64,000 nucleotides of DNA, from NCBI RefSeq assembly GCF_964213995.1, contig NC_135830.1, forward strand, positions 4,588,001 to 4,652,000. The letters are read 5' to 3'. Below are positions 7,761-60,075 of the stretch, one piece after another. Under the pieces are notes generated by a model. The model saw only the letters and a list, made by a program, of their open reading frames with translations. It was not told the DNA's origin and did not search any database. The translations under genes and the position numbers were made by a program. The stretch is from Mustelus asterias (taxonomy: Eukaryota). Every line of letters starts with the position of its first letter. The stretch's first letter is position 1.

Positions 7761-8635
7761 TCAGCGAATTGTCAACAGACTTTTCAACTGCTCTCTAAAT
7801 TTGCTCTGCGTTATTGCATAAATAAACGTGTTTGTGCAACAGCTTAACATCTGAAGCATGTTTCCACTTTCTTGAAAAATAAACTTAGGGTCACTAAATC
7901 CATTTATTTTATAATTCTTTATAAATCGATGACAAAAGAACTCCACAACATACGTCATCCACAATAGGATGAAACTACCCGAGATAGCAAATAGTAAAAC
8001 GATTGACTTTCTCCTACTCTCCATCTCTCTGTCATTGCTATTCTCTCCTCTACCCTGAATATGGAGTCTTCTTCGTGATCTGCTTGCAGCCAGGATGTGT
8101 CTGACAGTGAGGAAATTGAACAGAAGAATCAGAAAGAATGGGAGACAGGGAGTTATCATGCGGTCGAACCAATCAAATGCTGTCCATAATCGTGAAGTAT
8201 AACGGACATCCTTCTGTTTGCAATACCAGGGGATATTGCCAATTACGTAAATAGGTTCATGCATAAAGTACCAGGGGATGTTGATTAAAACACCCAACGT
8301 GCACACTGCTCCAATAACAACCGCTGCTGTTTTCTGGGTGCAATACTTCGTTTTAAGTTTCTGGCAACATATTGCTACAAATCGATCAAAAGTGAAAGCG
8401 ACTGTTAACCAAATAGAACTGTCCCTTGCTGCATATATTAGAGCAATGCTGAGACTGCAGACAGGAGTAATAGACAATAAACTGCCTGGGAAATAAATTG
8501 CAGGAATACGGTTCATTATCACGGCAGTGATGATGACCAGGAGATCTGTCACTGCCATGAAGACTAGGTATCTTGAGATACATCTGGAGAGACCACACTC
8601 TCCTCGGGAGATGACCACAATCGCTACCAAATTAA
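7761..8635 (-). CDS. GPR139/142-like GPCR-1, exon 2 (TM1 end to stop)
   Basis: Phase-1 acceptor cttacag|TT. Open frame with MAVTDLL (TM2), FTFDRFVAIC (TM3), PWYC (ECL2), RRKSIVLL and SCCTNTFIY (TM7). Confidence 0.93.
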
Positions 8636-8744
8636 CTGTAAGAAAGAGAGAAAAACGTCATTCCATAGAAACAGTTAGTAGCCATATATTATGGCGAGAA
8701 ATTCGAACATGTCACTGGATAACAACAATTAAAATGAAATAAAC

Positions 8745-18426: not shown

Positions 18427-18620
18427 TCCCCTTGATTGAATATTGTGCGTCGATTATATGTGAACCTGTGCCCACCTCACCTTCCCCTTGGTTGGTTGTA
18501 ACAGTTCTTCTCACTTCAAGTACCGGAGCTATTACATTTATCGAATTCTTACCGATATGTTTACTGCTCTTAGTGTGTATTATTTAACCATTCACCGTCT
18601 TCTCCCCCTCTCCCCTACAG

Positions 18621-19526
18621 TTAACATCGTGACCATTGTGATCCTGTCCCGAGGAAGATGTGATCTCTCCAGATGTATTACTCGGTACCTAGTATTTATG
18701 GCAGTGACAGATCTCTGGGTCATTATTACCGCTGTAATATTAAACCGAATTCCTGGTATTTATTTTCCAGGTAATTTTTTTGTCCATCACTCCAGTGTGT
18801 AGTGTCAATATTGCACTGAGGTATGCAGCCAGGGTCTGCTCTGTCTGGTTAACAGTCGCTTTCACGTTTGATAGATTTGTTGCCATCTTTTGCCAGAAGC
18901 TGAAAGCAGAATATTGCACCAATAAAACAGCAGCTATTGTCATAGGATTGATCTGTGCATTGGGTTTTTTAACCACTATTCCTTGGTACTTTATACACGA
19001 ACCTTTCTACATAGTTGACAATGTACCCTGGTATTGCAGACTTAATTATATCCGTTTTACTTCTCCTGTCTGCACAGCATTTGATTGGTTCGATCATCTT
19101 TTAACCCCACGTCTCCCATTCCTTCTGATTGTTTTGCTTAATGCACTGACTGTGAGAAACATTCTTATGGCTAATAAAGCACGCAGGAGACTCCTGGCCG
19201 AAAACAATGGAGAGAATCATAATGACCCAGAAATGGAATGCCGCAGGAAATCCATTGTCTTACTGTTCGCTATTTCTGGTAGTTTCATCCTCCTCTGGAT
19301 GACGTATGTTGTACAGTTCTTGTATGAGCGATTTACGAATGATTATAAAGTCAATGGCTTCAGTGACCCCAAATTTATCCTCATTGAGTCTTCAAATATG
19401 CTCCAGCTTTTGAGTTGCTGCACAAACACATTCATTTATGCTTTAACTCAAAGTAAATTCAAGGATCAGTTAAAGGCTTTGCTCCAAGACTCCCTGAATG
19501 TAATATGCCACCTGGTTAAATTATGA
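18621..19526 (+). pseudogene. GPR139/142-like GPCR-2, exon 2; frameshifted (pseudogene or sequencing error)
   Basis: Acceptor cccctacag|TT. ORFs 18488-18802 and 18780-19526 join across a T7 run (18775-18781) where T6 would restore the frame. Closest paralog of GPCR-1. No exon 1 found. Confidence 0.85.
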
Positions 19527-20945: not shown

Positions 20946-22270
20946 TGTAGTTTGCGCCTCTCAACTGCTCCTCTAGTGACATTACCACCGCACCCTACCT
21001 CCTTCTCATCACTCTTGCCTTCAGCCTGTCCCATCACTCCTCACTTCGATTTTCATGTGCATTAAATCTGATTCGTGTTAAAACATTCCCTATCTGAATT
21101 CAGCTTTTGTTCTCAAATGTACTAAGGATATAAGATGTACTGTACAGCCAGACATGCGACACCCTATCAGATGTTGGGACAAGGTTACTGAGAATAATTC
21201 GATATTCTTGACATTAGTTTTATATCAAAACATTAAACTGGGGTTCCTGTTGAAGGGAGATTTGAAGCATAGGTTTAGAGGGAACAATATCCTTGGTTTA
21301 GGTGCCTGTATAACAATGTATATTCAAAGCTAACCGTATAGCAATTTATATTAGTAGGAATTTACTGTTCGACGATCAGAAAAGGGCATGCATGAAATCT
21401 GCACCATGTTAACAGGTACTCAGGATAGTAATACGACACAAGATGGCAAGATGGATGCTAGCTTTTAGCCACACTCCTGAACACCATTAGCTGGCTTGAG
21501 CATAAGCTTGTGTACAATACACTACAGATACTGGTGACTGGTACCAGTCTATGATCTGAGGCCTCGGATGAGAACCAGATGCAGAGGATTAGGGAGGACA
21601 GTCATGGGAGATGAGAAGCTATGAAGCCATGAAGTTATTATTGATTGTTGGGAAACGATTCTGCCGAACTGTATTTTATCGGAAAGGAAATCTACCATCT
21701 TTGTTTCGCCTGTCCTAAATGCCACTCCACGAGTGGTTGCTTCTTAACTCTGCTTTGAAATCGAATTGATTTCAATTCGAAATTGAAATTGAAACTCTGC
21801 CGAGCAATCCTCCAGGTTCAAGGCAAATGCAACAATTGCTAATTTTGTCACCGTTGCCCCTGTCTCATGAAATGGCACTGGAGAAGCAGTATTGTACACT
21901 CAAGGACTCCAGATGGGAGAAAGAAAGATAATATTGACTGAGGTACCATGAGTCGTGTCCATGAGTCGAGCTGATGCACAAGCCCACCTTACGTATTGCC
22001 CTTTTCATTCGATATGTGACTGCTATATGTAATCTGTAATCAATGTTATTGGACGAGGTACAGCCATGATAGGCTGTGTAGATGTTTGAAAAATGTATAA
22101 GAATGGATGTTTTTCCTTTGTTCGTCAGAGAGAGGCACTGGGTTAAACAGAAGCCATCTCCCCGCCGGCGAAAATAAATCGTTTGATGCGAGGACCAACC
22201 CTGAGCGTTGAGTGATTTCTTTGAGAGTCTCTCCCGCTAACAGGCCAAATGGTATATTCTATTTCGGCAG

Positions 22271-22378
22271 ATTCTGTAGAATGTAAAACTCGGAGAAAAC
22301 TCTGCCCAGAGAACCAGGGAGAGAATGTTAATGTGCAGAAAGATTTGAAATTGTCAGAGCCGGAAGAGGCAGTTCCCA
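22271..22378 (+). other. Unidentified 108-nt phase 1-1 exon-like segment (xSVECKTRRKLCPENQGENVNVQKDLKLSEPEEAVP)
   Basis: tatattctatttcggcag acceptor, CCA|gtgagt donor, open frame, length divisible by 3. A paralog with the same splice sites lies at 26837-26947 on the minus strand. Confidence 0.5.
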
Positions 22379-23442
22379 GTGAGTAACAGTAAAACCACTG
22401 CGACAAATGAAGAGACTGAACTCAATCGACAACAGAGAGATATGTTCCCATGATTACAAGACACCCAAACAACACAAAGTGAATGTAGAAATAAAATGAA
22501 ACTGACTATAAATATTTGTATTGCAATCGAAAGCGAGACACAATATTTTGCATCGGTAGAAGATAAACAAGTGGATGAAAAGGGAAGCATAGACTCCCAG
22601 GAAGTGTTAAACCGACATAAATTAATGACATTTGACATCGATGAGCAGCATCGTTCGGCCCCTTTGGAGCTGATGAATCATATTAATACTCTGTTGGATC
22701 TTGCTCTGCTCGGTGATGGAACACCGCTGGGTTACGCTCGGACAATAATTTCTGGAAACGGATTGCCTCACTGATAATCAACTTTCCCTCGTTTTTGTCT
22801 GTCAGTAAGGAAAATATAAACTGAAATGTCGAATACATCATAGGATCAGACAGCGCGGTGGAATGACATTCGGCCCTTCTGGTGGATGTTGCCCCTTTAT
22901 AAATGAAATCCAACACTTCCTAATGCCCATGATGTTTTCTCCATAACCCCGTTTACCTTTCCTGTGCCAGTACTTGATCATAAGCAGTTCGTAATTCACT
23001 GTTGAGTCTGCTCCCACCACTCATTCTAATCGTGCAATCCAGATCAGAAATACTTGCTGTGTAAGATGAAGTATCACGTCAGTCCTCACTGGTTTGTGTT
23101 GTAATAACAGTGAATATAGTTCCATCAGATTTAATATAATGGCAATACCGCAAAAGAATAGATTTGTTCCCGTGCTTTCCACATTGCACGGGTAGAAAAG
23201 TGGATAATCACTCCATTTTTTTTGATCCTCCAGTTTCCAGTTCCCTGGTGTCCAAGAACCCGCCCCTTCAAACCTCTGCTGCCGTTGACACGGTTGCTCT
23301 AAGATGTGAATATTCAGGAACTTGTCAGTACATAACACACTGGCACAGTCAATCCCTAGGACAGACACCGAAATGCCTGCTTCAGCCACACACTTCAGGA
23401 ATGGCAAGTAAAGGAAACGCTGCCGGGGGGATAATTTCTGCT

Positions 23443-25432
23443 GAGAGTCATAGGGTCATAGAGGTTTACAGCATGGAAACAGGCATTCAGCATGCTTGGT
23501 TTCATTGGTCAGAACATTGAATACAGGATTGGGACATCTTGTTGAAGTTGTACAAGACATGGGTAAGGCCACACTTGGAATAATGTATACAGTTCTGGTC
23601 ACCCTATTATAGAATGGATATTATTAAACCAGAAAGAATGCAGAAAAGATTTACTAAGATGCTACCGGGACTTGATGGTTTGAGTTATAAGGAGAGGATG
23701 GATAGACTGGGACTTTTTTCTCTGGAGCGTAGAAGGCTGAGGGGTGATCATATAGAGGTCTATAAAATAATGAGGGGCACAGATCAGCTAGATAGTCAAT
23801 ACATTTTCCCAAAGGTAGGGAAGTCTAAAACTGGAGGGCATAAGTTTAAGGTGAGAGGGGAGACATTCAAAAGTGTCCAAAGGGGCATTTTTTTCACACA
23901 GAGGGTGGGGAATGCCGAACTTGTCCATGCCACCCTTTTTTTAAAACCCCGAAGCTAATCACAATTGCCCTGTTTGGTCCATATCCCTCTATACCGATCT
24001 TACCCATGTAACTGTCCAAATGCTTTTTAAAAGACAAAATTGTACCCGTCTCTACTACTACCTCTGGCAGCTTGTTCCAGACCTCTGTGTGAAAACATTG
24101 CCCCTCTGGACACTTTTGCATCTCTCACCTTCAACCTATGCCCTCTAGGTTTAGACTCTCCTACCTTTGGGAAAATATATGGACTATCTAGCTGATCTGT
24201 GCCCCAATTAGGTCGAATCGGATGAAAGAATATAATATTAAGGTTAAGACGCTTGGCAGTGTGGAAGAGCAGAAGGATCTTGGGGTCCGGGTTCATAGGA
24301 CGCTCAAAGCAGTGTCGCAGGTAGAGGTTGTGGTTAAGAACACGTATGGAATACTGGCCGTCATCAATAGAGGAATTGAGTTTAGAAATCGGGAGATAAT
24401 GCTGCAGCTGTATAGGGCCCTGGTCAGACCCCACCTGGAGTACTGTGCCCAGTTCTGGCCGCCTCATTACAGAAAGGATGTGGAAGCCACAGAAAGGGTG
24501 CAGAGGAGAATTACAAGGATGTTGCCTGGATTAGGTGGCATGCCTTATGAGGATAGGTTGAGAGAGCTGGATCTTTTCTCCTTGGAGAGGCGAAGGATGA
24601 GAGTTGACCTGATAGAGGTGTATAAGATACTGAGAGGTATTGATGGAGTGGATTCTCAGAGGCTTTTACCGAGGGCTGAAATGGTTGCCACAAGAAGTAA
24701 CAGGTTTAGGGTGCTGGGGAGTAGGTACAGAAGAGATGTTCGGGGTAAGTTTTTCACTCAGAGGGTGATGGGTGCGTGGAATCGGCTGCCGGTAGTGGTG
24801 GAGGAGGCGGATTCGATAGGGTCTTTTAAGAGACTTTTGGATAAGTTCATGGAAGTTAGTAAGATAGAGGGTTATAGGTAAACCTGGTAGGTAGGGACAT
24901 GTTCGGCGCAACTCGTGGGCCGAAGGGCCTGTTTGTGCTGTAGCTTTTCTATGTTCCATGTTCTATTATTTTATAGACCTCTCTAAGATCACTCCTCAGC
25001 CTTCTACGCTCCAGAGAAAGAAATTCCAGTCTATCCAGCCTCTCCTTATAACTCAAGCCATCAAGTCCCAGTCGCATCCTAATAAATCTTTTCTGCACTC
25101 TTTCTAGTTTAATAATATTCTTTCTATAACAGGGTGACCAGAACTGTACTCAAAATTCCAAGTTTGGCCTCACCAATGTCTTGTAGAACTTCAACAAGAC
25201 GTCCCAACTCCTGCATTCAACGTTCTGACCAATGAAACCAACATGCTGAATGACTTCTTCACCATTCTGTCCAGCTGTGACTCCACTTTCAAGGAGCTAT
25301 GAACATGTACCCCTAGATCTCTTTGTTCTGTAACTCTCCCCAACGCCCTCCCACTAACTGAGTAAGTCCTGCCCTGGTTCAATCTACCGAAATGCATCGC
25401 ATCTATCTCAGTTAAACTCCATTCGTCAGCCC
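23443..25432 (-). mobile_element. Nested CR1 stack inside the V segment: outer minus copy plus inner plus-strand copies at about 23485-23910 and 24207-24965
   Basis: RT C-terminal ORFs 23614-23958(+), 24222-24881(+), 23894-24121(-) and 25191-25397(-). The outer element resumes after each inner insertion. Confidence 0.85.
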
Positions 25433-25492
25433 AGAATTTCTACCGATTCTGCCGAGAAGATCAGTCGGTTAGAAATCTCGTAATTGCAACTG

Positions 25493-26046
25493 TACAGGAC
25501 CTTGGTGAGACCACATTTGGAATATTGTGTGCAGTTCTGGTCAACTCATTATAAGAAGGATGTGGAAACGCTGGAAAGAGTGCAGAGGCGATTTACCAGG
25601 ATGTTGCCTGGTTTGGAGGGTAGGTCTTATGAGGAAAGGTTGAGGGAGCTAGGGCTGTTCTCGCTGGAGCGGAGGAGGCTGAGGGGAGACTTAATGAGGT
25701 TTCTAAAATGATGAAGGGGATAGATAGAGTGAATGTTCAAAGACTATTTCCTCGGGTGGATGGAGCTATTACAAGGGGGCATAACTATAGGGTTCGTGGT
25801 GGGAGATATAGGAAGGATATCAGAGGTAGGTTCTTTACGCAGAGAGTGGTTGGGGTGTGGAATGGACTGCCTGCAGCGATAGTGGAGTCAGACACTTCAG
25901 GAACATTTAAGCGGTTATTGGATAGGCACATGGAGCACACCAGGATGATAGGGAGTGGGATAGCTTGATCTTAGTTTCAGATAAAGCTCGGCACAACATC
26001 GTGGGCCGAAGGGCCTGTTCTGTGCTGTACTGTTCTATGTTCTATG
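25493..26046 (+). mobile_element. Young CR1 3' fragment inserted in V framework 3
   Basis: Near-identical to the 3' end of the 40473-44852 copy. tgcaactg microhomology at the 5' junction and ttctatg tail. Confidence 0.95.
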
Positions 26047-26089
26047 AACGACTCTGCTAAGTATTACTGTGCACTGAGTCGGTACACAG

Positions 26090-26151: not shown

Positions 26152-26190
26152 CACAGTGATGCAGAACACGGAGAGAGCTGCACATAAACC
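26152..26190 (+). promoter_or_regulatory. Recombination signal sequence 2 (CACAGTG, 23-nt spacer, ACATAAACC)
   Basis: Second unit of a 61-62 bp tandem duplication. Perfect heptamer, 8/9 nonamer. Confidence 0.75.
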
Positions 26191-26836
26191 TGCACATGAT
26201 GAGGATTGCAGACACTCGGACATTATTGTTTGTTTAGTTATTGTTTCCATGGGGAATCATGTTATTTGGATTATTTTTGTTCTGGCATTCCTGGCAGTTC
26301 TATTGATTTGCAACCTTTTCTAACTTTATTTAATTTTAATGAAATATAACACGGTACAGGATCAGGTGATGCTCTATTTTAAGCAACGATCTGGAATGCA
26401 CTGTTGGAATGAAGGGTGAATATGGTCAACAGTAACGTTCAAACGGATAATTGCTCAGTGCTGGGGAAGGAAGACAATAGGGTCAACGCTCCAGAGCAAT
26501 GCATGGAGAGAGGAAATAATTAGATTGGACCTTTAAAAGGACAGTATCTAATCAAAGGCCGTATTTCATCCTTCAGCGCTGTATGATTCCATGAAGGATG
26601 TTATATTTTCAGGCAGTTACTATCAGCCTTTTTCTCTATTTTTTTATTTATTGAGTGAATTCAATTTTCTCCCTGCTTCTGGGATTTGAAATATCTACAG
26701 TTTCTATTATTTTGATTCCTACTTTGACTTTTTGGTGGTTGGGGTTCTTGCAATCGCGGGAACTTGTCTCAAAGTCTCTCAGTTGTCGTTTGGGATCAGA
26801 ATGTTCAGCTTCCGCAGTGGTTTTATTGTTACTCAC

Positions 26837-26947
26837 TGGGTGCTGCCTCTTCCGGCTCTCTGACAATTTCAATTATTTCTGTCCATCAAATCATCCTCTC
26901 CCGGGACTCTGGGCAGAGTATTCTCTAAGTTGTACATTGTACTGAAG
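26837..26947 (-). pseudogene. Degenerate paralog of the 22271-22378 exon (xSVQCTT*RILCPES...EPEEAAP)
   Basis: ccctcttctgcag acceptor and CCA|gtgagt donor. Contains an in-frame stop and indels. Intron homology continues to about 26690 versus 22515. Confidence 0.5.
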
Positions 26948-27052
26948 CTGCAGAAGAGGGATCGGTCATTCAGTTCAACAGATTCATGTCCGTTTATACT
27001 CCATACCATTCAGCACCCACCAGTAATCTAATTGCCCATTTCACACACCCTG

Positions 27053-27611
27053 TATAGAACATAGAACATAGAACAACTACAGCACAAACAGGCCCTTCGG
27101 CCCACAAGTCGCGCCGAAACACATCCCTACCTTCGAGACCTACCTATAACCCTCCATCCTATTAAGCTCCATGTACTCATCCAGGAGTCTCTTAAAAGAC
27201 CCTATTGAGTTCGCCTCCACCACCACTGACGGCAGCCGATTCCACTTGCCCACCACCTTCTGTGTGAAAAATCTCCCCCTAACATCTCGCCTGTACCTAC
27301 CCCCCAGCACCTTAAACCTGTGTCCTCTCGTAGCAGACAGTTCCACCCTGGGAAAAAGCCTCTGAGAGTCCACCCGATCTACGCCTCTCAACATCTTATA
27401 CACCTCTATTCAGTCTCCTCTCATCCTACGTCTCTCCAAGAAGAAAAGACCGAGTTCCCTCGGCCTATCCTCATAAGGCATGCCACTCAATCTAGGCACC
27501 ATCCTTGTAAATCTCCTCTGCACCCTTTCAATCTTTTCCACATCCTTCCTATAGTGAGGCGACCAGAACTGAGCACAGTACTCCAAGTGGGGTCTGACGA
27601 GGGTCTTATAT
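27053..27611 (-). mobile_element. CR1 3' fragment
   Basis: ORF 27140-27403 RT C-terminus and agaacat-repeat tail. Related to 24207-24965. Confidence 0.9.
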
Positions 27612-28453
27612 AGACCTGTATTGGTCTATCGTTTCAAACGTACCCATAAATGTATCAGTACACCCTGGTCCAAACACACGGGGTGGCAACAAGTTCTAAA
27701 TTCTGACGTCTCTTTGTTTAAATTCCTTCATTTTAATACCTTTTAATAACGTTTCTGTTCAAGACGATAACATGTTCATGGCCCAATTCTCTGGAGACTA
27801 CCCACAAATAAACAATAGCTCCACAATCACCCCATTGAACCCATTCATATTTTAAATCATGTCTGCACATCCTCCTCCTGGTTCTCCATTCTCCAAAGAG
27901 AGACTCAGCACGTTACACCTTTCAGTGAGATGTGGATTGTTGCTGATTTCTTTACTTATATGTGCATAACGAGAGTCGGACAATTCTAACTGATAGAAGT
28001 AGGAGCGGTCCGCTCAATTTACGAAGCTGCTCTGCCATTCAGGAATGACGTGGATGATCTATTACTTCACCAACAACTTTCTGCATTGCCCTCACAATCC
28101 TTGGATTATTTTAATAATCAACTATCAATCGAATACAGCCTTGCATACACCCTGCAATGACAATCCACAACTCTCTGTGGGATAGAGTCTACAGATTCAC
28201 AACAGTGGTTTGATTGAAGACATTCCTCTCTTCTGGTTTCAAATGTCTGTACCCTTATTCTGAAACTGTGACGTCAAGTTATAAACTCCAAAGATTGGAT
28301 ATATCGACCACATATCTGTTCTATCAACAACTTAATAATATTTTATGTTTCAATGAGTGTACCTCTAATTCCTCCCAATTCTAGGATTAAAGGCCCGGGC
28401 TACTCAATTTATTCACATTGAGCAATCCTGTTATCTGAAAACTCGGTACTCAC

Positions 28454-28481
28454 TCAGGGTGAAAACAAGGAGGATTCCCAT
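28454..28481 (-). CDS. Candidate signal-peptide first coding exon (MGILLVFTL) of an unidentified, probably dead gene
   Basis: ATG at 28481 and phase-1 donor A|gtgagt. Preceded by acceptor tcatttgttccag (28493) and an upstream donor GAG|gtgagt (28558). Phase-compatible with the 26947 exon, giving MGILLVFTLTSVQC. Confidence 0.4.
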
Positions 28482-30096
28482 CGTTCTGCTGCCTGGAACA
28501 AATGATAAGATGACCGGGAGCTGGAGACTGCAGACCTGCGCTTCTCTGGGAGACTCACCTCAGAGCTGCAATGAAATACTTCAAACCCTGGCACTGGTAA
28601 CTTGTGCCAAAGCCAAAGTTCACAACAAAAAAAAACTTGAGGATTAAAATGCGACGCTCATCTGTTAATATTCAGTCCATTATCCACGACCGCTATTTCT
28701 GCCTTGGAGCTCCCAGAACCATTTTGCCACCGCACCGCCACCCACCCCCCACCCCCCCACGCCACCCCCCCCCTCCCACCCCCTGGCTGTTGCGACCCGC
28801 ATTTTTGGAGTATTCTATGGTCTGTAGTTGAGTGGAAGAGGGCCGTGCTCACGAGATCTTTGATGGGGTGGACGGATCTGCAGTTTCTTATGCTGTATTG
28901 TGTGAATGACGGTCAGGTTTAATGAGTGAGCTGACATTCATCGCTTCGTTGGATCTGTGGGCTGCGTTTCAAAATCCCACCCACGTTAGTCTGCTGTACA
29001 GGAGATAGGAGATGGCGTCGTTGTGTCAGTGGAAGCTCCCACCCTCTTTTCCCCGCTGTCGTGAGTTGGGAGATCGGTCAATGTGATTTTATTGGATGGT
29101 ATTATTTCCGCTCTTATTTCTGTCGTGCCCCGTTCCTTTAGCAACACCCTGGGGGGGTTTGCGGGAACTCAGTTAAATGTTCGAGCAGAATGCCAAAGCC
29201 TCAGAACACGCAGCTTCCCTCAGTCCAGAAACTGGTGATCAGGTTACAATATCACACCTTCCACTGACAACATCCACGCATTAATTTACCACATACACAG
29301 CGATTCCTACACCATCGATATTGTCTAAATTAGATTATTGTGTGCACCATATTTGATTGATGATTTGAGGATCTTGTGCCAGATGCGGGCCTCCATTAAA
29401 ATGTACCAACGATGAGAAACTTTAGTTTTGTGGAAAGATTGGAGAAAGTGGGAATCTTCGCCATCGAACAAAGAAGTTTGAGATAATATTTGATTAATAT
29501 TGACAGTTATTCTCGTTGAATAAATAAGGAAACATGGCACCTAATGGCAGAAGGTTTGTCACCAGATGACTTACATTGAAAGGAATGGCATTTGAGAAAG
29601 AACCAGCGGCAATTTGAGCAGGCATTTGCTTTACAATGTGATTTGTTGTCATATGGAATATACTCAGAAAGACTTGTGGAAGAAGATTTAATAGTAAATG
29701 TCAACAGTGAATTGGACAACTAAAGCCATGGAAACATTAGCAAGGCAGTCGTGTAGGCACAGTGGAATGATAATAAATTGGTAACTGTGCAAAAGTGGCC
29801 ACCAAGACACGATGTGCTGAATGATATCCTTCTGTAATTGAATGATGAAGGAAGGGGAGCATAAGTTCCAGATGTTCCCAGTATCTAAAAATATTTCCGT
29901 TTTCTGAGCAGTTACTGTTCGAAGTTCCGTGCTATTTTTACGCAAATAATCAAAGTTTGCCGTCAGCAGCCTGTTTGCAGAAATAATTTATGGTGTTGCC
30001 CGATTCACACTGCACAGACAGCCACAGGTATCATCCAGCTCTGGTACCGATAAAAACACTACAGGAGGCGCTGAGGTGTTTTGTGGGAGAAGTCAA

Positions 30097-30432
30097 AGAA
30101 TCATAGAATCCCTCCAGTGCAGAAAGAGGCCATTTATCTCATCCAGTCTGCACCGACCACAATCCCACCCAGTCCCTGCCCCCATATGCCTACATATTTA
30201 CCCACTAATCTCTCTAACCTACGCATCTCAGGACACTAAGGGGCAATTTTAGCATAGCCAGTCAACCTAACCCGCACATCCTTGGACTGTGGGAGAAAAC
30301 CGGAGCACCCGGAGGAAACACACGCAGACACGGGGAGAATGTGCAAACTCCACACAGACAGTGACCCAAGCCGGGAATCGAATCGAGGGGCTATGCCGCA
30401 GCAGTGCTAACCATTGTGCTACCGTGCCGCCC
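30097..30432 (-). mobile_element. HE1/V-SINE-type SINE
   Basis: Reverse complement of the head ggcggcacggtagcacaatggttagcactgc, the core, and a (ATTCTATG)-like tail. Confidence 0.9.
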
Positions 30433-31524
30433 GACTGGCAGCTGGTTTTCTTCAGCCCACTAAGTATCGGGTTGTTTCTTCGGTTTGACGCTGAAGATGT
30501 ATATCTGGGAGACGTGGGAAGTTTCAAATTGTGCTGAATATTCAGTTATACAGATTGACAGTGCAGAAACTATCTTTGGATTGTAATATAACCTGAGTGA
30601 TGGAAGTTCAGTGTGTGAACAGCGTATCTGCCCCCTCTGGCAGCTGCAGAAACGGGCTGAGTGATTGTATTCGGATTTTCAAGAAAATCTGATTGCCAAG
30701 ATGTTTACAATTGCAAAAAGATATCTTCTGAACAAAAATGTAGAAATAGTACTTAATGTCTGGTTTAAAAACAAAGCTGCTGAATGTCAATATGAGATAG
30801 GCACTCAGTGGATTCTATAATCACTGAATCGGAGAATTGTGCAGGTTGGATGGAATCACTTGTCCATCGTGCCATTAATGTCATTTAAAGAGCTATTGGA
30901 TTTTGTTCCTGAAGCCTCCTTTTTGTCGACAGCTCTGAAGATCCCACCCCCAAACCCCATCAGTTTATGCAATTCCCTTTTGAAGATTTCCAGTGAATCT
31001 TCAATGACATATTCCATACTAAAGTAGTATAGTTTAACAACGTTCTATTTATCTCCCTTCAGGATATTTTAACAATTATTGTAAACCTTGGAACTGTTCT
31101 TTGGAAACAGTTTTGCCTTACTCTCTCAAAGTTCAATGTTAATTTGAATTAGATTCCCCATTCACCATCATGGATTAAAGGAGAACAATTACAGATTCTC
31201 TAGTCTCTCTGTGCAACTGAAATCCGTCATTTCCTGACATCATTCCAGTCAACATCTTCTTTGAACTCTCCAAGACCCTCATATCCCTTCTTCTACGTAC
31301 TGACCAGAATGAGACACAATTCCTCAGTTCAATGACGTGTAAAATTTTAACATAGCTTCCTTACTTTTGTACTATTTCTCAAATTATAGACAAACATCCT
31401 CTGCGGATTATGAACAATTTTATAATCTGCTCATCCCAGTGATATCCATGTGTGCCTGCATTCATTCTGTTGCGGCACACGTTTAAAATAGTCGCGTTTA
31501 GTTTACGTTGCATCGCCTGATTAG

Positions 31525-37545: not shown

Positions 37546-38601
37546 CATATCCATTCCCATTCACAGATTATTCTCTCAGCTCTGTCAGAAGCAAAGAAGT
37601 GGAAAACGGAGTGTTGGGCAGGACAACAAGCCGAACAGCTGAACAATAGTTAGCTTTTGAAATTGGGAGAGAAAAGATAAGTTTAAATCAAGATTAAAGT
37701 CAAAAATAAAAAAGGAATTGGAATCTGAGCAGGGCACAGTTAATGATTGTTGCAGCATGGTGCACAGATGTTAGAGTGGTATTGGAGCTGAAGTGTGGAC
37801 AGAATAATAGCTGCTGTGCACAGCAGGGGAAATGTTCTTAATGAACCAGCTCCCACAGCACATCAATTCTTTGTCGCTCAGCAGCATGCCCGTAAGTATT
37901 TACAGTTGACAGATCAGAATTCTCATCTAGTGGTTACTGAGGGTCGTATTCAACAATGTAAAATACCGCCTTGAATGCCGTTCTAATGTGCAGAAGGCAG
38001 GTAAAATCATACCCGAGCTCTTCAGAGTTTAAACTCGAGCCCACACCCAACACAGAGTTGGACATTCACCTTTATCTCGTCCCCGTTTTTCCCAGATGAA
38101 CATATGGTTGGACTTATGTGAGTATGAGCTTGTAGATTTCAAAACTGGAGAATAAATCCGACTCGTGTTGTACGGGTTTGATACACAAAGCCAGCGCATC
38201 ATCTGTCTATCTGTCCCTGCACCTGATTTCAAATTTGTCTCTTTAGTTATTAATGTCTTCCATGCTCTTTGCTTCAAACTCCATTGAATTATCGCACATC
38301 TGTCCTCTGCCCATAACAGAACGCCACCTCTTGCTCCTCCAGTTACCCATTGGCTAATCCTTTACTTCTGGTTCTCTCCATCACCTTTGCATGCCACATC
38401 ATTCTTGCCTCCCCTCTCTTCTCACATTTTGGTTATTTTTTCACATCTGCTTCTCCCAGACCTTCCTGTTTCTCCTTTCTGGTCTATTTATTTCAGTACA
38501 TCACAGGATGCAGGAGCACATCTCATTATTTATTCTACTCAAATGGCAACTTGTTCCGCAGCCTGATGTATAATTTTAGTGTTTATTTTCCTTCCTTTCA
38601 G

Positions 38602-39503
38602 CGAACGTAATAACGATTTTCATTCTCACGTGCAAAAAATGTGGTCTCTCCAAATGTGTTGCTTGTTATCTGGTGGCGATGTCAGTGGCGGATCTACTAG
38701 TCCTTATCCTTGACCTGATACTGAGACAAATTCCAGCAGTTTATGAGAAATCGTTTTATTTCCTGTATTCCATTCCCGTGTGCAATTTTCATGCTGTTCT
38801 GCTTTATACAGCTACTGACTGTTCAGTCTGGTTCACCGTTACTTTCACCTTTGATCGATTTGTGGCCATTTGTTGCCAGAAGCTGAAAAGTAAATATTGC
38901 AGCGAGAAAACGGCGGCTGTGGTTCTGGGAACAGTGTCAGCTCTGAGCTGTCTAAAGAACATTTTCTGGTGGTTTATGTTATTAGGTAGTTATACGTTGT
39001 TAAACGACCCCTGGTTTTGTGCTTACAGAAGATATATTCTGTTCTCTCCATTCTGGGTAACAATCGAATTCATCCACAACATTCTAACGCCGTGTATTCC
39101 ATTTGTCCTAATTCTGCTCCTGAATGTTTTCACAATCAGACACATTTTGGTGATGAGCAGGGCCCGCAGCAGACTGCGGTCTCACAGAAGTGAGGAAAAT
39201 TACAAAGATCCAGAGATGGAGAGTCGAAGGAAATCCATAATTTTAGTGTTGGTTATTTCAGTCAATTTCGTTCTTTTATGGTCAACGTTAATGATATTTT
39301 CCATATGGAGACGGATGCATGGTTTAGGATTTCGGTCTATGCACTTAGATTTTTACGTTCTGGAATTGGGCTTCATGACGCAGCTCCTGAGTTGCTGCAC
39401 AAACACTGGGATTTATGCCGTCACCCAAACTAAGTTCAGAGAGCAGTTGAAGAATGTGGTGAAAAACCCCTTCATTGTAATTGTCCAATTCATTCAAAAA
39501 TGA
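38602..39503 (+). CDS. GPR139/142-like GPCR-3 exon 2
   Basis: Acceptor ttccttcctttcag|CG. Open frame from NVITIFIL through AMSVADLL, FTFDRFVAIC, PWFC, DPEMESRRKSI and SCCTNTGIY to the stop. Confidence 0.93.
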
Positions 39504-40213: not shown

Positions 40214-40554
40214 GCTAATAATCAAGGACGGACACAAATCAAATTTGAGTATTTCCGTTAGTGAAGGGTGATAATTAATTTGCAATGTCTATGCGCACAC
40301 GATTGTGTATGTGTGTGTCCATATGCATGTCCATAGGCATGTATGTGTGTGTGTGTGTCTGTGTGCATGCATGTTTGTTTATCTGTGTGCATATGCATCT
40401 CTGTATGTGTATGCATCTGTAAGTCTCAGTGTGTGTGAGTGCATTTGGTTCTGTCTGTTTCTGAGTGTGTTTAGAACATAGAACATAGAACAGTACAGCA
40501 CAGAACAGGCCCTTCGGCCCACGATGTTGTGCCGAGCTTTATCTGAAACCAAGA

Positions 40555-43400
40555 TCAAGCTATCCCACTCCCTATCATCCTGGTGCGCTCCATGTGCCTA
40601 TCCAATAACCGCTTAAATGTTCCTAAAGTGTCTGACTCCACTATCACTGCAGGCAGTCCATTCCACACCCCAACCACTCTCTGAGTAAAGAACCTACCTC
40701 TGATATCCTTCCTATATCTCCCACCACGAACCCTATAGTTATGCCCCCTTGTAATAGCTCCATCCACCCGAGGAAATAGTCTTTGAACGTTCACTCTATC
40801 TATCCCCTTCATCATTTTATAAACCTCGATTAAGTCTCCCCTCAGCCTCCTCCGCTCCAGAGAGAACAGCCCTAGCTCCCTCAACGTTTCCTCATATGAC
40901 CTACCCTCCAAACCAGGCAGCAACTTGGTAAATCTCCTCTGCACTCTTTCCAGCGCGTCCACATCCTTCTTATAGTGAGGTGACCAGAACTGCACACAAT
41001 ATTCCAAATGTGGTCTCACCAAGGTCCTGTACAGTTGCAGCATAACCCCATGGCTCTTAAACTCCAACCCCCTGTTAATAAAAGCTAACACACTATAGGC
41101 CTTCTTCACAGCTCTATCCACTTGTGTGGCAACCTTTAGAGATCTGTGGATATGGACCCCAAGATCTCTCTGTTCCTCCACAGTCTTCAGAACCCTACCT
41201 TTGACCCTGTAATCCCCATTTAAATTAGTCCTACCAAAATGAATCACCTCACATTTATCAGGGTTAAACTCCATTTGCCATTTTTCATCCCAGCTTTGCA
41301 TCCGATCTATGTCTCTTTGCAGCCTACAACAGCCCTCCACCTCATCCACTACTCCACCAATCTTGGTGTCATCAGCAAATTTACTGATCCACCCTTCAGC
41401 CCCCTCCTCTAAGTCATTAATAAAAATCACAAAGAGCAGAGGACCAAGCACTGATCCCTGTGGCACTCCGCTAGCAACCTGCCTCCAATCCGAAAATTTT
41501 CCATCCACCACCACCCTCTGTCTTCGATCAGACAGCCAGTTACTTATCCAATCGGCCAACTTTTCCTCTATCCCACACCTCCTCACTTTCATCATGAGCC
41601 GACCATGGGGGACCTTATCAAACGCCTTACTAAAATCCATGTATATGACATCAACTGCCCTACCTTCATCTACACACTTAGTTACCTCCTCAAAAAATTC
41701 TATCAAATTTGTGAGGCACGACTTGCCCTTCACGAATCCGTGCTGACTATCCTGGATTAGTCCGCATCTTTCTAAATGGTCGTAAATCCCATCTCTAAGG
41801 ACCTTTTCCATCAATTTACCAACCACCGAAGTAAGACTAACCGGTCTATAATTACCAGGGTCATTTCTATTCCCTTTCTTAAACAGAGGAACAACATTCG
41901 CCATTCTCCAGTCCTCTGACACCATCCCCGTGGACAGCGAGGACCCAAAGATCAAAGCTAAAGGCTCTGCAATCTCAACCCTTGCCTCCCAAAGAATCCC
42001 GGGATACATTTCATCAGGCCCAGGGGACTTATCGACCTTCAGTTTATTCAAAACTGCCAGGACATCCTCCCTCCGAACATCTATTTCCTCCAGCCTATTA
42101 GCCTGTAACACCTTCTCTTCCTCAAATCATGGCCCCTCTCCTTGGTGAACACTGAAGAAAAGTATTCATTCATCACCTCGCCTATATTTACTGACTCCAT
42201 ACACAAGTTCCCACTACTGTCCTTGACCGGCCCTAACCTCACCCTGGTCATTCTTTTATTCCTCACATAAGAGTAAAAAGCCTTCGGGTTTTCCTTGATC
42301 CGACCCACCAAGGACTTCTCGTGTCCCCTCCTAGGTCTCCTAAGCCCGTTTTTCAGCTCATTCCTTGCTAACTTGTAACCCTCAATCGAGCCATCTGAAC
42401 CTTGTTTCCTCATCCCTACATAAGCTTCCCTCTTCCTTTTCACAAGACATTCCACCTCTTTCGTGAACCATGGTTCCCTCACTCGGCCATTTCCTCCCTG
42501 CCTGACAGGGACATACCTATCAAGGACATCCAGTATTTGTTCCTTGAAAAAGTTCCACTTTTCATTAGTTCCTTTCTCTGACAGTTTCTGTTCCCAACTT
42601 ATGCCGCCTAATTCTTGCCTAATCGCATCATAATTACCTCTCCCCCAATTGTAAGCCTTGCCCTGCCGTACGGCCCTATCCCTCTCCATTGCAATAACAA
42701 AAGACACCGAATTGTGGTCACTATCTCCAAAGTGCTCTCCCACAACCAAATCTAACACTTGGCCCGGTTCATTTCCCAGGACCAAATCCAATGTGGCCTC
42801 ACCTCTTGTCGGCCTATCCACATATTGTGTCAGGAAACCCTCCTGCACACACTGCACAAAAACTGCCCCATCCGAACTATTTGACCTACAAAGGTTCCAA
42901 TCAATATTTGGAAAGTTAAAGTCCCCCATGACAACTACCCTGTGACCCCCACACATATCCATAATCTGCTGAGCAATTTCTTCCTCCACATCTCTATTAC
43001 TATTTGGGGGCCTATAGTAAACTCCTAACAACGTGACCGCTCCTTTCCTATTTCAAACCTCAGCCCATATTACCTCAGTGTGCAGATCCCCCTCGAAGTG
43101 CCTTTCCACAGCCGTTAAACTATCTTTGATTAACAATGCCACTCCTCCACCTCTTTTACCAGCTTCCCAACACTTACTGAAACATCTATACCCCGGAACG
43201 TCCAACAACCATTCCTGTCCTTGTTCTACCCACGTCTCCGTAATGGCCACAACATCGTAGTCCCAAGTACCAATCCACGCCCCAAGTTCATCTACCTTGT
43301 TCCGGATGCTCCTTGCATTGAAGTAGACACACTTCAACCCACCTTCCTGTCTACCGGTACCCACCCTTGAACCTGATACCTTCCCCAATACCTCACCACC
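40555..43400 (-). pseudogene. CR1 ORF2p (APE endonuclease plus reverse transcriptase); stop at 43053, frameshift near 42120
   Basis: YFNARSI, ITETW, MGDFN, SDH, GVPQGSVLGP and FADD motifs. The start is approximate. Confidence 0.93.
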
Positions 43401-59683: not shown

Positions 59684-60075
59684 TTAAAAATCCACAGGAA
59701 CCCTCCGTTTCTGTCCTCCTGCCCTCGGCAGAAGAAGTCTCCGCTCACAGGTTCGTCTCCCTCAGCTGCTGAGTGAGAGGTTTCTCCCCCCGAGAGATCT
59801 TCGTCAAGTGGACGATCAATGACAAGCCAGTGAATCCCGGGAACTATAAGAACACCGAGGTGGTGGCGGAGAACGGCAATGGCTCCTTCTTCATGTACAG
59901 CCTGATAGCTATTGCAGTGGAGGAGTGGTCCAGTGACACTTCTTACTCATGTGTGGTGGGACATGAAGCCATCCCCTTGAAGGTCATCGACAGGACGGTT
60001 GACAAATCCAGCGTTAAACCCGGTTTTGTGAACATTTCTCTTGCACTGATGGACACCGTCAATTCATGTCAATGA
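59684..60075 (+). pseudogene. IGHM: IgM heavy-chain C-mu4 plus secretory tail exon with a premature stop
   Basis: Acceptor tttcgatag|TT. Reads [41 protein letters not shown]...[44 protein letters not shown]1-set Cys/Trp/Cys, tailpiece with NIS sequon and penultimate Cys, TGA at 59770. Confidence 0.92.

What the first reader, a model, noticed from the sequence alone, without database searches (positions are those of the whole stretch)
23234..26089. Hidden NAR-TCR supporting-type V-delta, reassembled from three LINE-separated pieces
Seen: three fragments concatenate into a V domain with an extra Cys in CDR1 (CEYSGTCQY), a splice acceptor, no convincing leader exon and an RSS. Known: in the shark doubly rearranging NAR-TCR, the membrane-proximal V-delta lacks a leader and has a CDR1 Cys. 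I saw no NAR V, D or J upstream and no TCR J or C in the window. Inference: an orphan moved out of its cassette, or a decayed edge of the TCR alpha/delta locus.
Basis: partly seen in the sequence, partly recalled or inferred. Interest (0 to 1): 0.7.

Follow-up and report, generated by a model that had tools for sequence, protein, structure and literature searches.

The report
Broken gene from multiplied shark TCR-delta
This is a broken shark T-cell receptor gene segment, cut by retrotransposons and copied at least four times; tracing it shows that this shark's assembly holds many separate copies of the T-cell receptor delta locus, which likely include at least five real ones, where vertebrates usually have one.

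Summary
Confirmed, with corrections. Three pieces join base for base into a supporting-type V-delta of the shark NAR-TCR family (CDR1 Cys, no leader). It groups with a white-shark gene labelled NARTCRdV in a published table. It is not a lone transposed orphan. It keeps 1 kb of its own cassette intron, faces the leader and intron of a lost partner cassette, and lies in a block of at least 47 kb with three sister copies. The pseudogene is ordinary. The context is not: 19 TCR-delta constant exons were found, and 9 of 9 examined sit in their own J-C mini-locus, 8 behind a NAR V-J-supporting V cassette. Six compared loci are 85.5-98.8% alike; three lie megabases apart on one contig. No delta constant lies before either TCR-alpha J array as assembled. 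Several copies carry RAG-type joints. Some copies may be haplotigs, and expression is untested. This scan earlier noted stacked RSSs, convergent cassette pairs and pre-joined NAR segments elsewhere in this genome, but three look-ups found no note on multiple delta loci.

The parts
22243..23233 (+). Remnant of the intron that joins NAR J to the supporting V in intact cassettes, ending in the acceptor AG; not a leader intron
   Evidence: 70-74% identical to this intron of intact cassettes on C71, C119 and C90
23234..23442 (+). Supporting V-delta, piece 1 (FR1 to part of FR3, with the CDR1 Cys)
   Evidence: 172 of 207 bases match L005; open frame
23443..25438 (.). Insertion 1: composite of LINE 3' fragments in both orientations, 1996 bp; 24205-24965 is a later nested insert
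   Evidence: 1238 bp in the C71:7.28 Mb sister, 1989 bp in C128 and C270
25439..25492 (+). Supporting V-delta, piece 2, with in-frame TAA at 25481-25483
   Evidence: 44 of 54 bases match L005; stop only in the window copy
25493..26046 (+). Insertion 2: 554-bp 3' end of a young LINE, found only in this copy
   Evidence: 96.6% identical to 40477-41031, part of an element whose ORF hits Pfam RVT_1; absent from three sisters
26047..26089 (+). Supporting V-delta, piece 3 (with the YYC motif)
   Evidence: 36 of 43 bases match L005
26090..26129 (+). First RSS: consensus heptamer and nonamer, 24-nt spacer
   Evidence: intact paralogs have 23
26152..26190 (+). Second, tandem 23-RSS of the family's 61-bp repeat stack; a third unit breaks off near 26215
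26383..28299 (-). Intron remnant of a facing partner cassette whose supporting V and NAR V-D-J are gone; interrupted by a LINE at about 27055-27615
   Evidence: 67-80% to J-V introns of intact cassettes, reverse strand; 76% to the plus-strand intron; sisters keep two short traces of the lost RSS stack and V
28448..28481 (-). NAR-TCR leader exon remnant (15 nt shorter than an intact one) with donor site
29871..30651 (-). Two conserved blocks upstream of the leader remnant, shared with intact cassettes
   Evidence: 67-77% to C71:16.08 Mb, C71:11.08 Mb and C229

Best explanation
The segment is a LINE-split, stop-carrying pseudogene of the leaderless 'supporting' V-delta of the shark NAR-TCR, left in place in a decayed face-to-face cassette pair, and it likely makes no receptor. 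In an intact cassette a leader-NAR V-D-J exon is spliced to a supporting V that has rearranged to D-delta, J-delta and C-delta (known from PMC1845163 and PMC12227049; anatomy shown here). Inferred history, from shared and private insertions: (1) both cassettes lost their NAR V-D-J and the minus-strand one also lost its V; (2) a LINE entered the remaining V; steps 1 and 2 are shared by all four copies and their order is not resolved; (3) a block of at least 47 kb was duplicated, giving the C71:7.28 Mb copy; (4) a nested LINE was added; (5) a further duplication gave the C128/C270 copy; (6) this copy alone gained the 554-bp LINE and the TAA. It is likely debris of the segmental duplication that also multiplied whole TCR-delta mini-loci in this genome.
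For: Collinearity with an intact paralog. Family: 55 of 59 longer homologs have NAR V upstream; published label; tree, window V plus three sisters 100/100, inside a 25-row group (95/87) with the labelled gene; CDR1 Cys in 30 of 30 fetched loci. Decay: insertions and stop; no NAR V or delta constant in C71:4.498-4.692 Mb; no NAR V-D-J trace with eight cassettes as DNA queries. In-place decay: own intron, partner leader and intron; intact convergent pairs with the same geometry on C71 and C119. Duplication: 85-93% to C71:7.244-7.298 Mb and 87-98% to C128 and C270; C128 and C270 are 99.9% alike and probably one locus. The C71:7.28 Mb sister lies 140 kb behind a delta constant.
Against: dN/dS between broken copies is 0.27-0.62 (7-9 synonymous, 7-14 non-synonymous differences), no higher than 0.24-0.41 between intact copies for three of four pairs. 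Neutral decay is therefore not shown by this test. The counts are small, and V identity (93-95%) is only slightly above flank identity (91-94%). The second RSS still has a 23 spacer and a near-consensus nonamer, so the site could still be cut. The order of events rests on four copies, two of them probably allelic. No expression data were obtained.
Confidence: 0.88

Rival explanations
1. A lone V segment that was moved out of its cassette into unrelated DNA.
For: No NAR V, D or J upstream; the neighbours are GPCR genes and repeats.
Against: It keeps 1 kb of its own intron and faces a partner leader and intron in the geometry of intact pairs. What moved was a block of at least 47 kb.
Confidence: 0.05
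2. The broken V still takes part in recombination as a decoy or as a source of non-productive joins, through its stacked RSSs.
For: The heptamer is intact in both RSSs, and the second has a 23 spacer. A wrong-partner join between a NAR D and a supporting V is assembled on C122.
Against: The nearest delta D-J-C is 2.5 Mb away; no promoter or leader lies upstream on its strand; no joint to this copy was seen.
Confidence: 0.04
3. A conventional leader-bearing V-alpha/delta, or a non-rearranging V domain, that happens to have an extra Cys.
For: Pfam sees only a general V-set domain in the intact paralog; PDB hits of piece 1 are generic light chains.
Against: Conventional Vs fall outside its group; homologs are spliced behind NAR V; RSS present.
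Confidence: 0.01
4. Context rival: the many delta loci are an assembly effect (uncollapsed haplotypes, or lymphocyte DNA in the sample), and the animal has one or two.
For: 16 of 19 constant-exon hits are on contigs other than C71. One pair of 12 compared loci is identical over 3.3 kb and others are over 99% alike. C850 is 99.9% identical to C71:12.25 Mb behind a V-D joint, and C122 is 99.2-99.5% identical to C71:12.22 Mb around an inversion.
Against: Three loci lie 1.2-3.9 Mb apart on C71 and are 92.9-95.4% alike. C110 and C119/C96 are 85.5-90% alike to two of them, and J number and layout differ. Alleles or somatic clones would not differ so much in introns. The same V-D junction stands on three contigs with different V sequences.
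Confidence: 0.12

Closest known systems
NAR-TCR supporting TCR-delta V of cartilaginous fish (Criscitiello 2006, not held; features read in PMC1845163, labels in PMC12227049 Table S1)
   Same: Leaderless V with CDR1 Cys and acceptor; about 80% identity between the intact paralog and labelled white-shark genes; cassettes scattered over megabases in both orientations, as in the white shark table.
   Different: This copy is split, carries a stop and has lost its NAR V-D-J.
Elasmobranch antigen-receptor complex with TCR alpha/delta as one translocon (PMC12227049)
   Same: TCR V, NAR-TCR cassettes and IgH pieces mixed on one contig.
   Different: The paper reports a translocon for TCR alpha/delta and miniclusters only for Ig; its table shows one delta-constant model next to TCR alpha in stingray and in catshark. 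Here 19 delta constant exons were found, none before an alpha J array.
Marsupial and monotreme TCR-mu clusters (PMC7615758)
   Same: Repeated units of V-D-J, supporting V, (J) and C for a three-domain chain derived from TCR delta; partial clusters lack the first V and D; pre-joined segments.
   Different: TCR-mu uses VH-like V domains and a diverged constant; here the Vs are NAR-type and V-delta and the constant keeps the delta signature. The resemblance is convergent.
TRA/TRD separation in newts; extra TRD loci in galliform birds and flounder (PMC12698447)
   Same: Delta genes away from the alpha J array.
   Different: Those cases have one separate or one extra TRD; here there are many, on the same contig as TRA and on unplaced contigs.
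Germline-joined shark Ig genes (PMC2193156, seen only as search listing)
   Same: RAG-type coding and signal joints in genomic sequence of a shark.
   Different: Here they are in TCR-delta units, and their germline status is not proven.

Membership tests
NAR-TCR supporting V-delta | No leader peptide of its own | tested here: met
   Upstream 1 kb is the J-to-V intron of intact cassettes; no leader match on the plus strand
NAR-TCR supporting V-delta | Conserved Cys in CDR1 | tested here: met
   Present; 30 of 30 fetched family loci have it; feature from PMC1845163
NAR-TCR supporting V-delta | Descent from the supporting-V lineage | tested here: met
   Tree with the published NARTCRdV gene
NAR-TCR supporting V-delta | NAR V-D-J directly upstream | tested here: not met
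   None in 194 kb around the V; so filed as a pseudogene remnant by descent, not as a working cassette
NAR-TCR supporting V-delta | Open frame and 23-RSS | tested here: not met
   Two insertions, TAA, 24-nt first spacer; second RSS is 23
NAR-TCR supporting V-delta | Rearranged and expressed with C-delta | not testable with these tools
   No RNA holder listed; database double-V proteins are gene predictions
Conventional TCR V-alpha/delta | Own leader exon and place among conventional Vs | tested here: not met
TCR delta locus (for the multiplied units) | Constant exon signature CLxxxFxP, not the alpha signature CLxTD-F (PMC10322711) | tested here: met
TCR delta locus (for the multiplied units) | D segment with 12- and 23-RSS before 12-RSS J segments | tested here: met
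   Seen in 6 of 9 loci examined; in the other 3 the D is already joined to a V
TCR delta locus (for the multiplied units) | Canonical order delta C - alpha J array - alpha C | tested here: not met
   No delta C in 110 kb before the C71 array or 138 kb before the C546 array; a simple-repeat tract and a scaffold gap lie just before them, so this depends on the assembly
TCR-mu | VH-related V domains in both positions | tested here: not met
   NAR-type and V-delta-type Vs; works like TCR-mu clusters, not a member

The most novel reading that the evidence does not exclude
This shark has turned TCR delta from one locus nested in TCR alpha into an antibody-like family of self-contained mini-loci: at least five and up to 19 units of leader-NAR V-D-J, supporting V, Ig-like V, D, J and C-delta. 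They are detached from two TCR-alpha loci, some are fixed with germline V-D or D-J joints, and at least one V has joined across units. That would be a shark parallel of marsupial TCR-mu clusters, with the window's V as debris of the same amplification.
Probability: 0.55. Interest if true: 0.75.

Novelty: new variant of a known kind. Interest (0 to 1): 0.5.

Why it matters
The pseudogene alone adds little beyond a datable series of LINE insertions and duplications. The locus plan it leads to matters more. Shark TCR genes are described as single translocons and only Ig genes as miniclusters (PMC12227049, PMC6795676), and TRD is described as embedded in or adjacent to TRA in all species with both chains except newts (PMC12698447). 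A shark with many separate delta units would show that the cluster plan can arise for a T-cell receptor in sharks too. It would make two questions testable: how one delta chain per cell is kept with many loci, and whether RAG acts on TCR genes in shark germ cells.

Tried and rejected
Pfam on piece 1 alone: 0 families. PDB search: only generic light-chain Vs. Near-length homolog search: 1 hit, unnamed. Pfam PF09291 found no alpha constant in the genome; it was found later through a J motif. dN/dS gave no clear sign of neutral decay. Sequencing runs: no RNA holder listed. Laying on the unrearranged C71:12.22 Mb cassette did not list the C122 inversion joints, but the tables were cut: no verdict. 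A target-site duplication at insertion 1 was considered and rejected, because the paralogs show no doubled V bases. A single local inversion as the source of the facing introns was rejected, because the two introns are only 76% alike. Four primary papers were not held. No structure or complex prediction was run, as it would not bear on a pseudogene.

Full report
Observation. The three pieces are real. Against the intact paralog L005 they are collinear and match at 172 of 207, 44 of 54 and 36 of 43 bases. Piece 1 scores 103 bits; the best of 50 shuffled windows scores 25.8. Stacked 61-bp RSS units are typical of the family.

What it is. The genome is a shark's: the intact paralog is 95-98% identical to proteins labelled Mustelus asterias and about 80% to those of other sharks. 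These are gene predictions and may come from a closely related assembly, so they do not show expression. Of 59 longer homologs, 55 have a NAR-type V in front of this V type; the four others are P0013, P0043, P0057 and P0060. One homolog, white-shark LOC121270138, is labelled NARTCRdV in Table S1 of PMC12227049. PMC1845163 gives the marks of the supporting V as no leader and a CDR1 Cys. In a 38-row tree the window V and three broken sisters form a clade (100/100) inside a 25-row group (95/87) that holds the labelled gene; conventional Vs lie outside. The tree used 13 of the intact loci and 12 database supporting-type Vs.

Why it is not a lone orphan. Upstream, 22243-23233 is 70-74% identical to the NAR J-to-V intron of intact cassettes. 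Downstream, on the minus strand, lie a shortened NAR-TCR leader (28448-28481), conserved blocks upstream of it, and about 2 kb of the same kind of intron, 76% alike to the plus copy. Intact face-to-face cassette pairs with this geometry occur on C71 and C119. The sister copies keep two ten-base traces that fit the lost RSS stack and V of the partner; these are short and only supportive. No NAR V, D or J was found with eight cassettes as DNA queries over 104 kb, and no NAR V or delta constant over 194 kb by protein search.

History. The V lies in a block of at least 47 kb that recurs at C71:7.244-7.298 Mb (85-93%) and on C128 and C270 (87-98%); C128 and C270 are 99.9% alike. Insertion 1 is in all four copies, its nested part in three, and insertion 2 and the stop only here. 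Insertion 2 is 96.6% identical to the 3' end of a reverse-transcriptase-coding element in the window; the name LINE rests on this and on recall of shark repeats. Against a clean pseudogene story, dN/dS between broken copies was 0.27-0.62 on few changes, which does not show neutral decay.

The context. A search with the delta constant exon scored 73 candidates and gave 19 matches, three on C71. The exon carries the delta signature of PMC10322711 and not the alpha one. I read 9 of the 19 loci. All 9 have their own J segments, constant, hinge and transmembrane exons. Eight have a NAR V, NAR J and supporting V 18-48 kb upstream on the same strand; C71:11.04 Mb has a conventional V instead. Six loci compared pairwise are 85.5-98.8% alike over collinear blocks and differ in J number. 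Of 12 constant-exon loci compared over 3.3 kb, one pair is identical and the rest are 96.6-99.8% alike. I read this as at least five real loci; the true number between 5 and 19 is open, because 16 hits are on other contigs and some are probably haplotigs. The nearest delta constant is 2.53 Mb from the window V; its sister at 7.28 Mb lies 140 kb behind that constant.

TCR alpha. A J-motif search led to an array of 33 J segments and an alpha constant at C71:18.37-18.43 Mb, and to a second array with a 77% identical alpha constant on C546. No delta constant lies in the 110 kb or 138 kb before them. Long simple repeats precede the first array and a 200-N gap the second, so a misjoin or a missing piece cannot be excluded.

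RAG-type joints in the assembly. A supporting V is joined to a delta D with the same junction on C96, C119 and C436, with another junction on C850, and a conventional V is joined to D at C71:11.024 Mb. A NAR D is joined to its J on C173. C122 carries a 5.77-kb inversion with a perfect signal joint between a NAR D 12-RSS and a supporting V 23-RSS. On C850 the left arm matches C154 at 99.5% and the right arm C71:12.25 Mb at 99.9%, which suggests a join across units, though an earlier recombination between units would look the same. One junction shared by three diverged copies argues for inheritance. The C122 and C850 cases could be somatic. The read tests were inconclusive.

Comparison with print. 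PMC12227049 (passages, section 6 and the whole Table S1 read; the PDF supplement not read) reports TCR alpha/delta as a translocon, with NAR-TCR cassettes scattered over about 9 Mb in the white shark, one marked germline-joined. Scattering and pre-joined NAR Vs are therefore not new. Its table has one delta-constant model next to TCR alpha in stingray and in catshark, and no explicit delta-constant row for the white and epaulette sharks. A constant-region search gave 14 proteins: 8 labelled Mustelus, 2 sevengill shark and 1 each of four other sharks; clustering and length limits make this a weak count. PMC12698447 and PMC7615758 (passages) supply the nearest parallels: TRA/TRD separation in newts and TCR-mu clusters. 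Also seen as passages: PMC1845163, PMC3457774, PMC6795676, PMC5931798, PMC10322711, PMC11372145. PMC2193156 was seen only in a listing. Eight searches showed no report of multiple delta loci in a shark in their listings, but the four key primary papers were not held, so novelty is not secure. Earlier notes of this scan cover stacked RSSs, convergent pairs and pre-joined NAR segments; look-ups for multiple delta constants found none.

Verdict. The finding is a correctly identified but ordinary pseudogene, worth about 0.15 alone. The multiplied delta loci it leads to are well supported as sequence, untested as function, and would surprise a comparative immunologist. Overall interest 0.5.

Noticed in passing
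G000:C71:7085304-7141741 (L043-L049); also C71:11.0 and 12.22 Mb, C96, C110, C119, C123, C173, C181: Separate TCR-delta mini-loci, each with its own J set and constant gene; 19 constant-exon matches in the assembly.
   Followed up: yes
G000:C122:393165-398928 (L123, L124): 5.77-kb inversion with a perfect signal joint between a NAR D 12-RSS and a supporting V 23-RSS, and the matching coding joint; a wrong-partner but 12/23-legal join. Germline or somatic is open.
   Followed up: partly
L008, L010, L012 (C96, C436, C119); L016 (C850); G000:C71:11023720-11023800; G000:C173:95071-95100: Pre-joined V-D and D-J coding joints; on C850 the two arms match different units.
   Followed up: partly
G000:C71:18370833-18431905 and G000:C546:138289-242100: Two TCR-alpha J arrays with constants 77% alike, neither preceded by a delta constant as assembled; zinc-finger ORFs lie upstream on C71.
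   Followed up: partly
L073:7611-8082, run X4 (organism B): One contig joins the supporting V directly to the first delta J and runs on into the J intron, so a V-J joined form stands in genomic-type sequence of a relative.
   Followed up: no
window 7764-8657 (-), 18464-19523 (+), 38580-39500 (+); more in the flanks: Array of rhodopsin-family GPCR ORFs interleaved with antigen-receptor debris; three scanned hit Pfam 7tm_1.
   Followed up: partly
window 59773-60072 (+): An Ig C1-set exon that looks like a terminal IgH constant domain (isotype from recall); no other copy in 194 kb.
   Followed up: no
G000:C71:4507486-4509200: Two decayed conventional TCR V segments 103 kb upstream of the window V, 94.5% identical to an inverted stretch at C71:7.171-7.173 Mb.
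   Followed up: no
window 40472-43131 (-): A long young LINE with endonuclease and reverse-transcriptase ORFs, of the family that gave insertion 2.
   Followed up: partly
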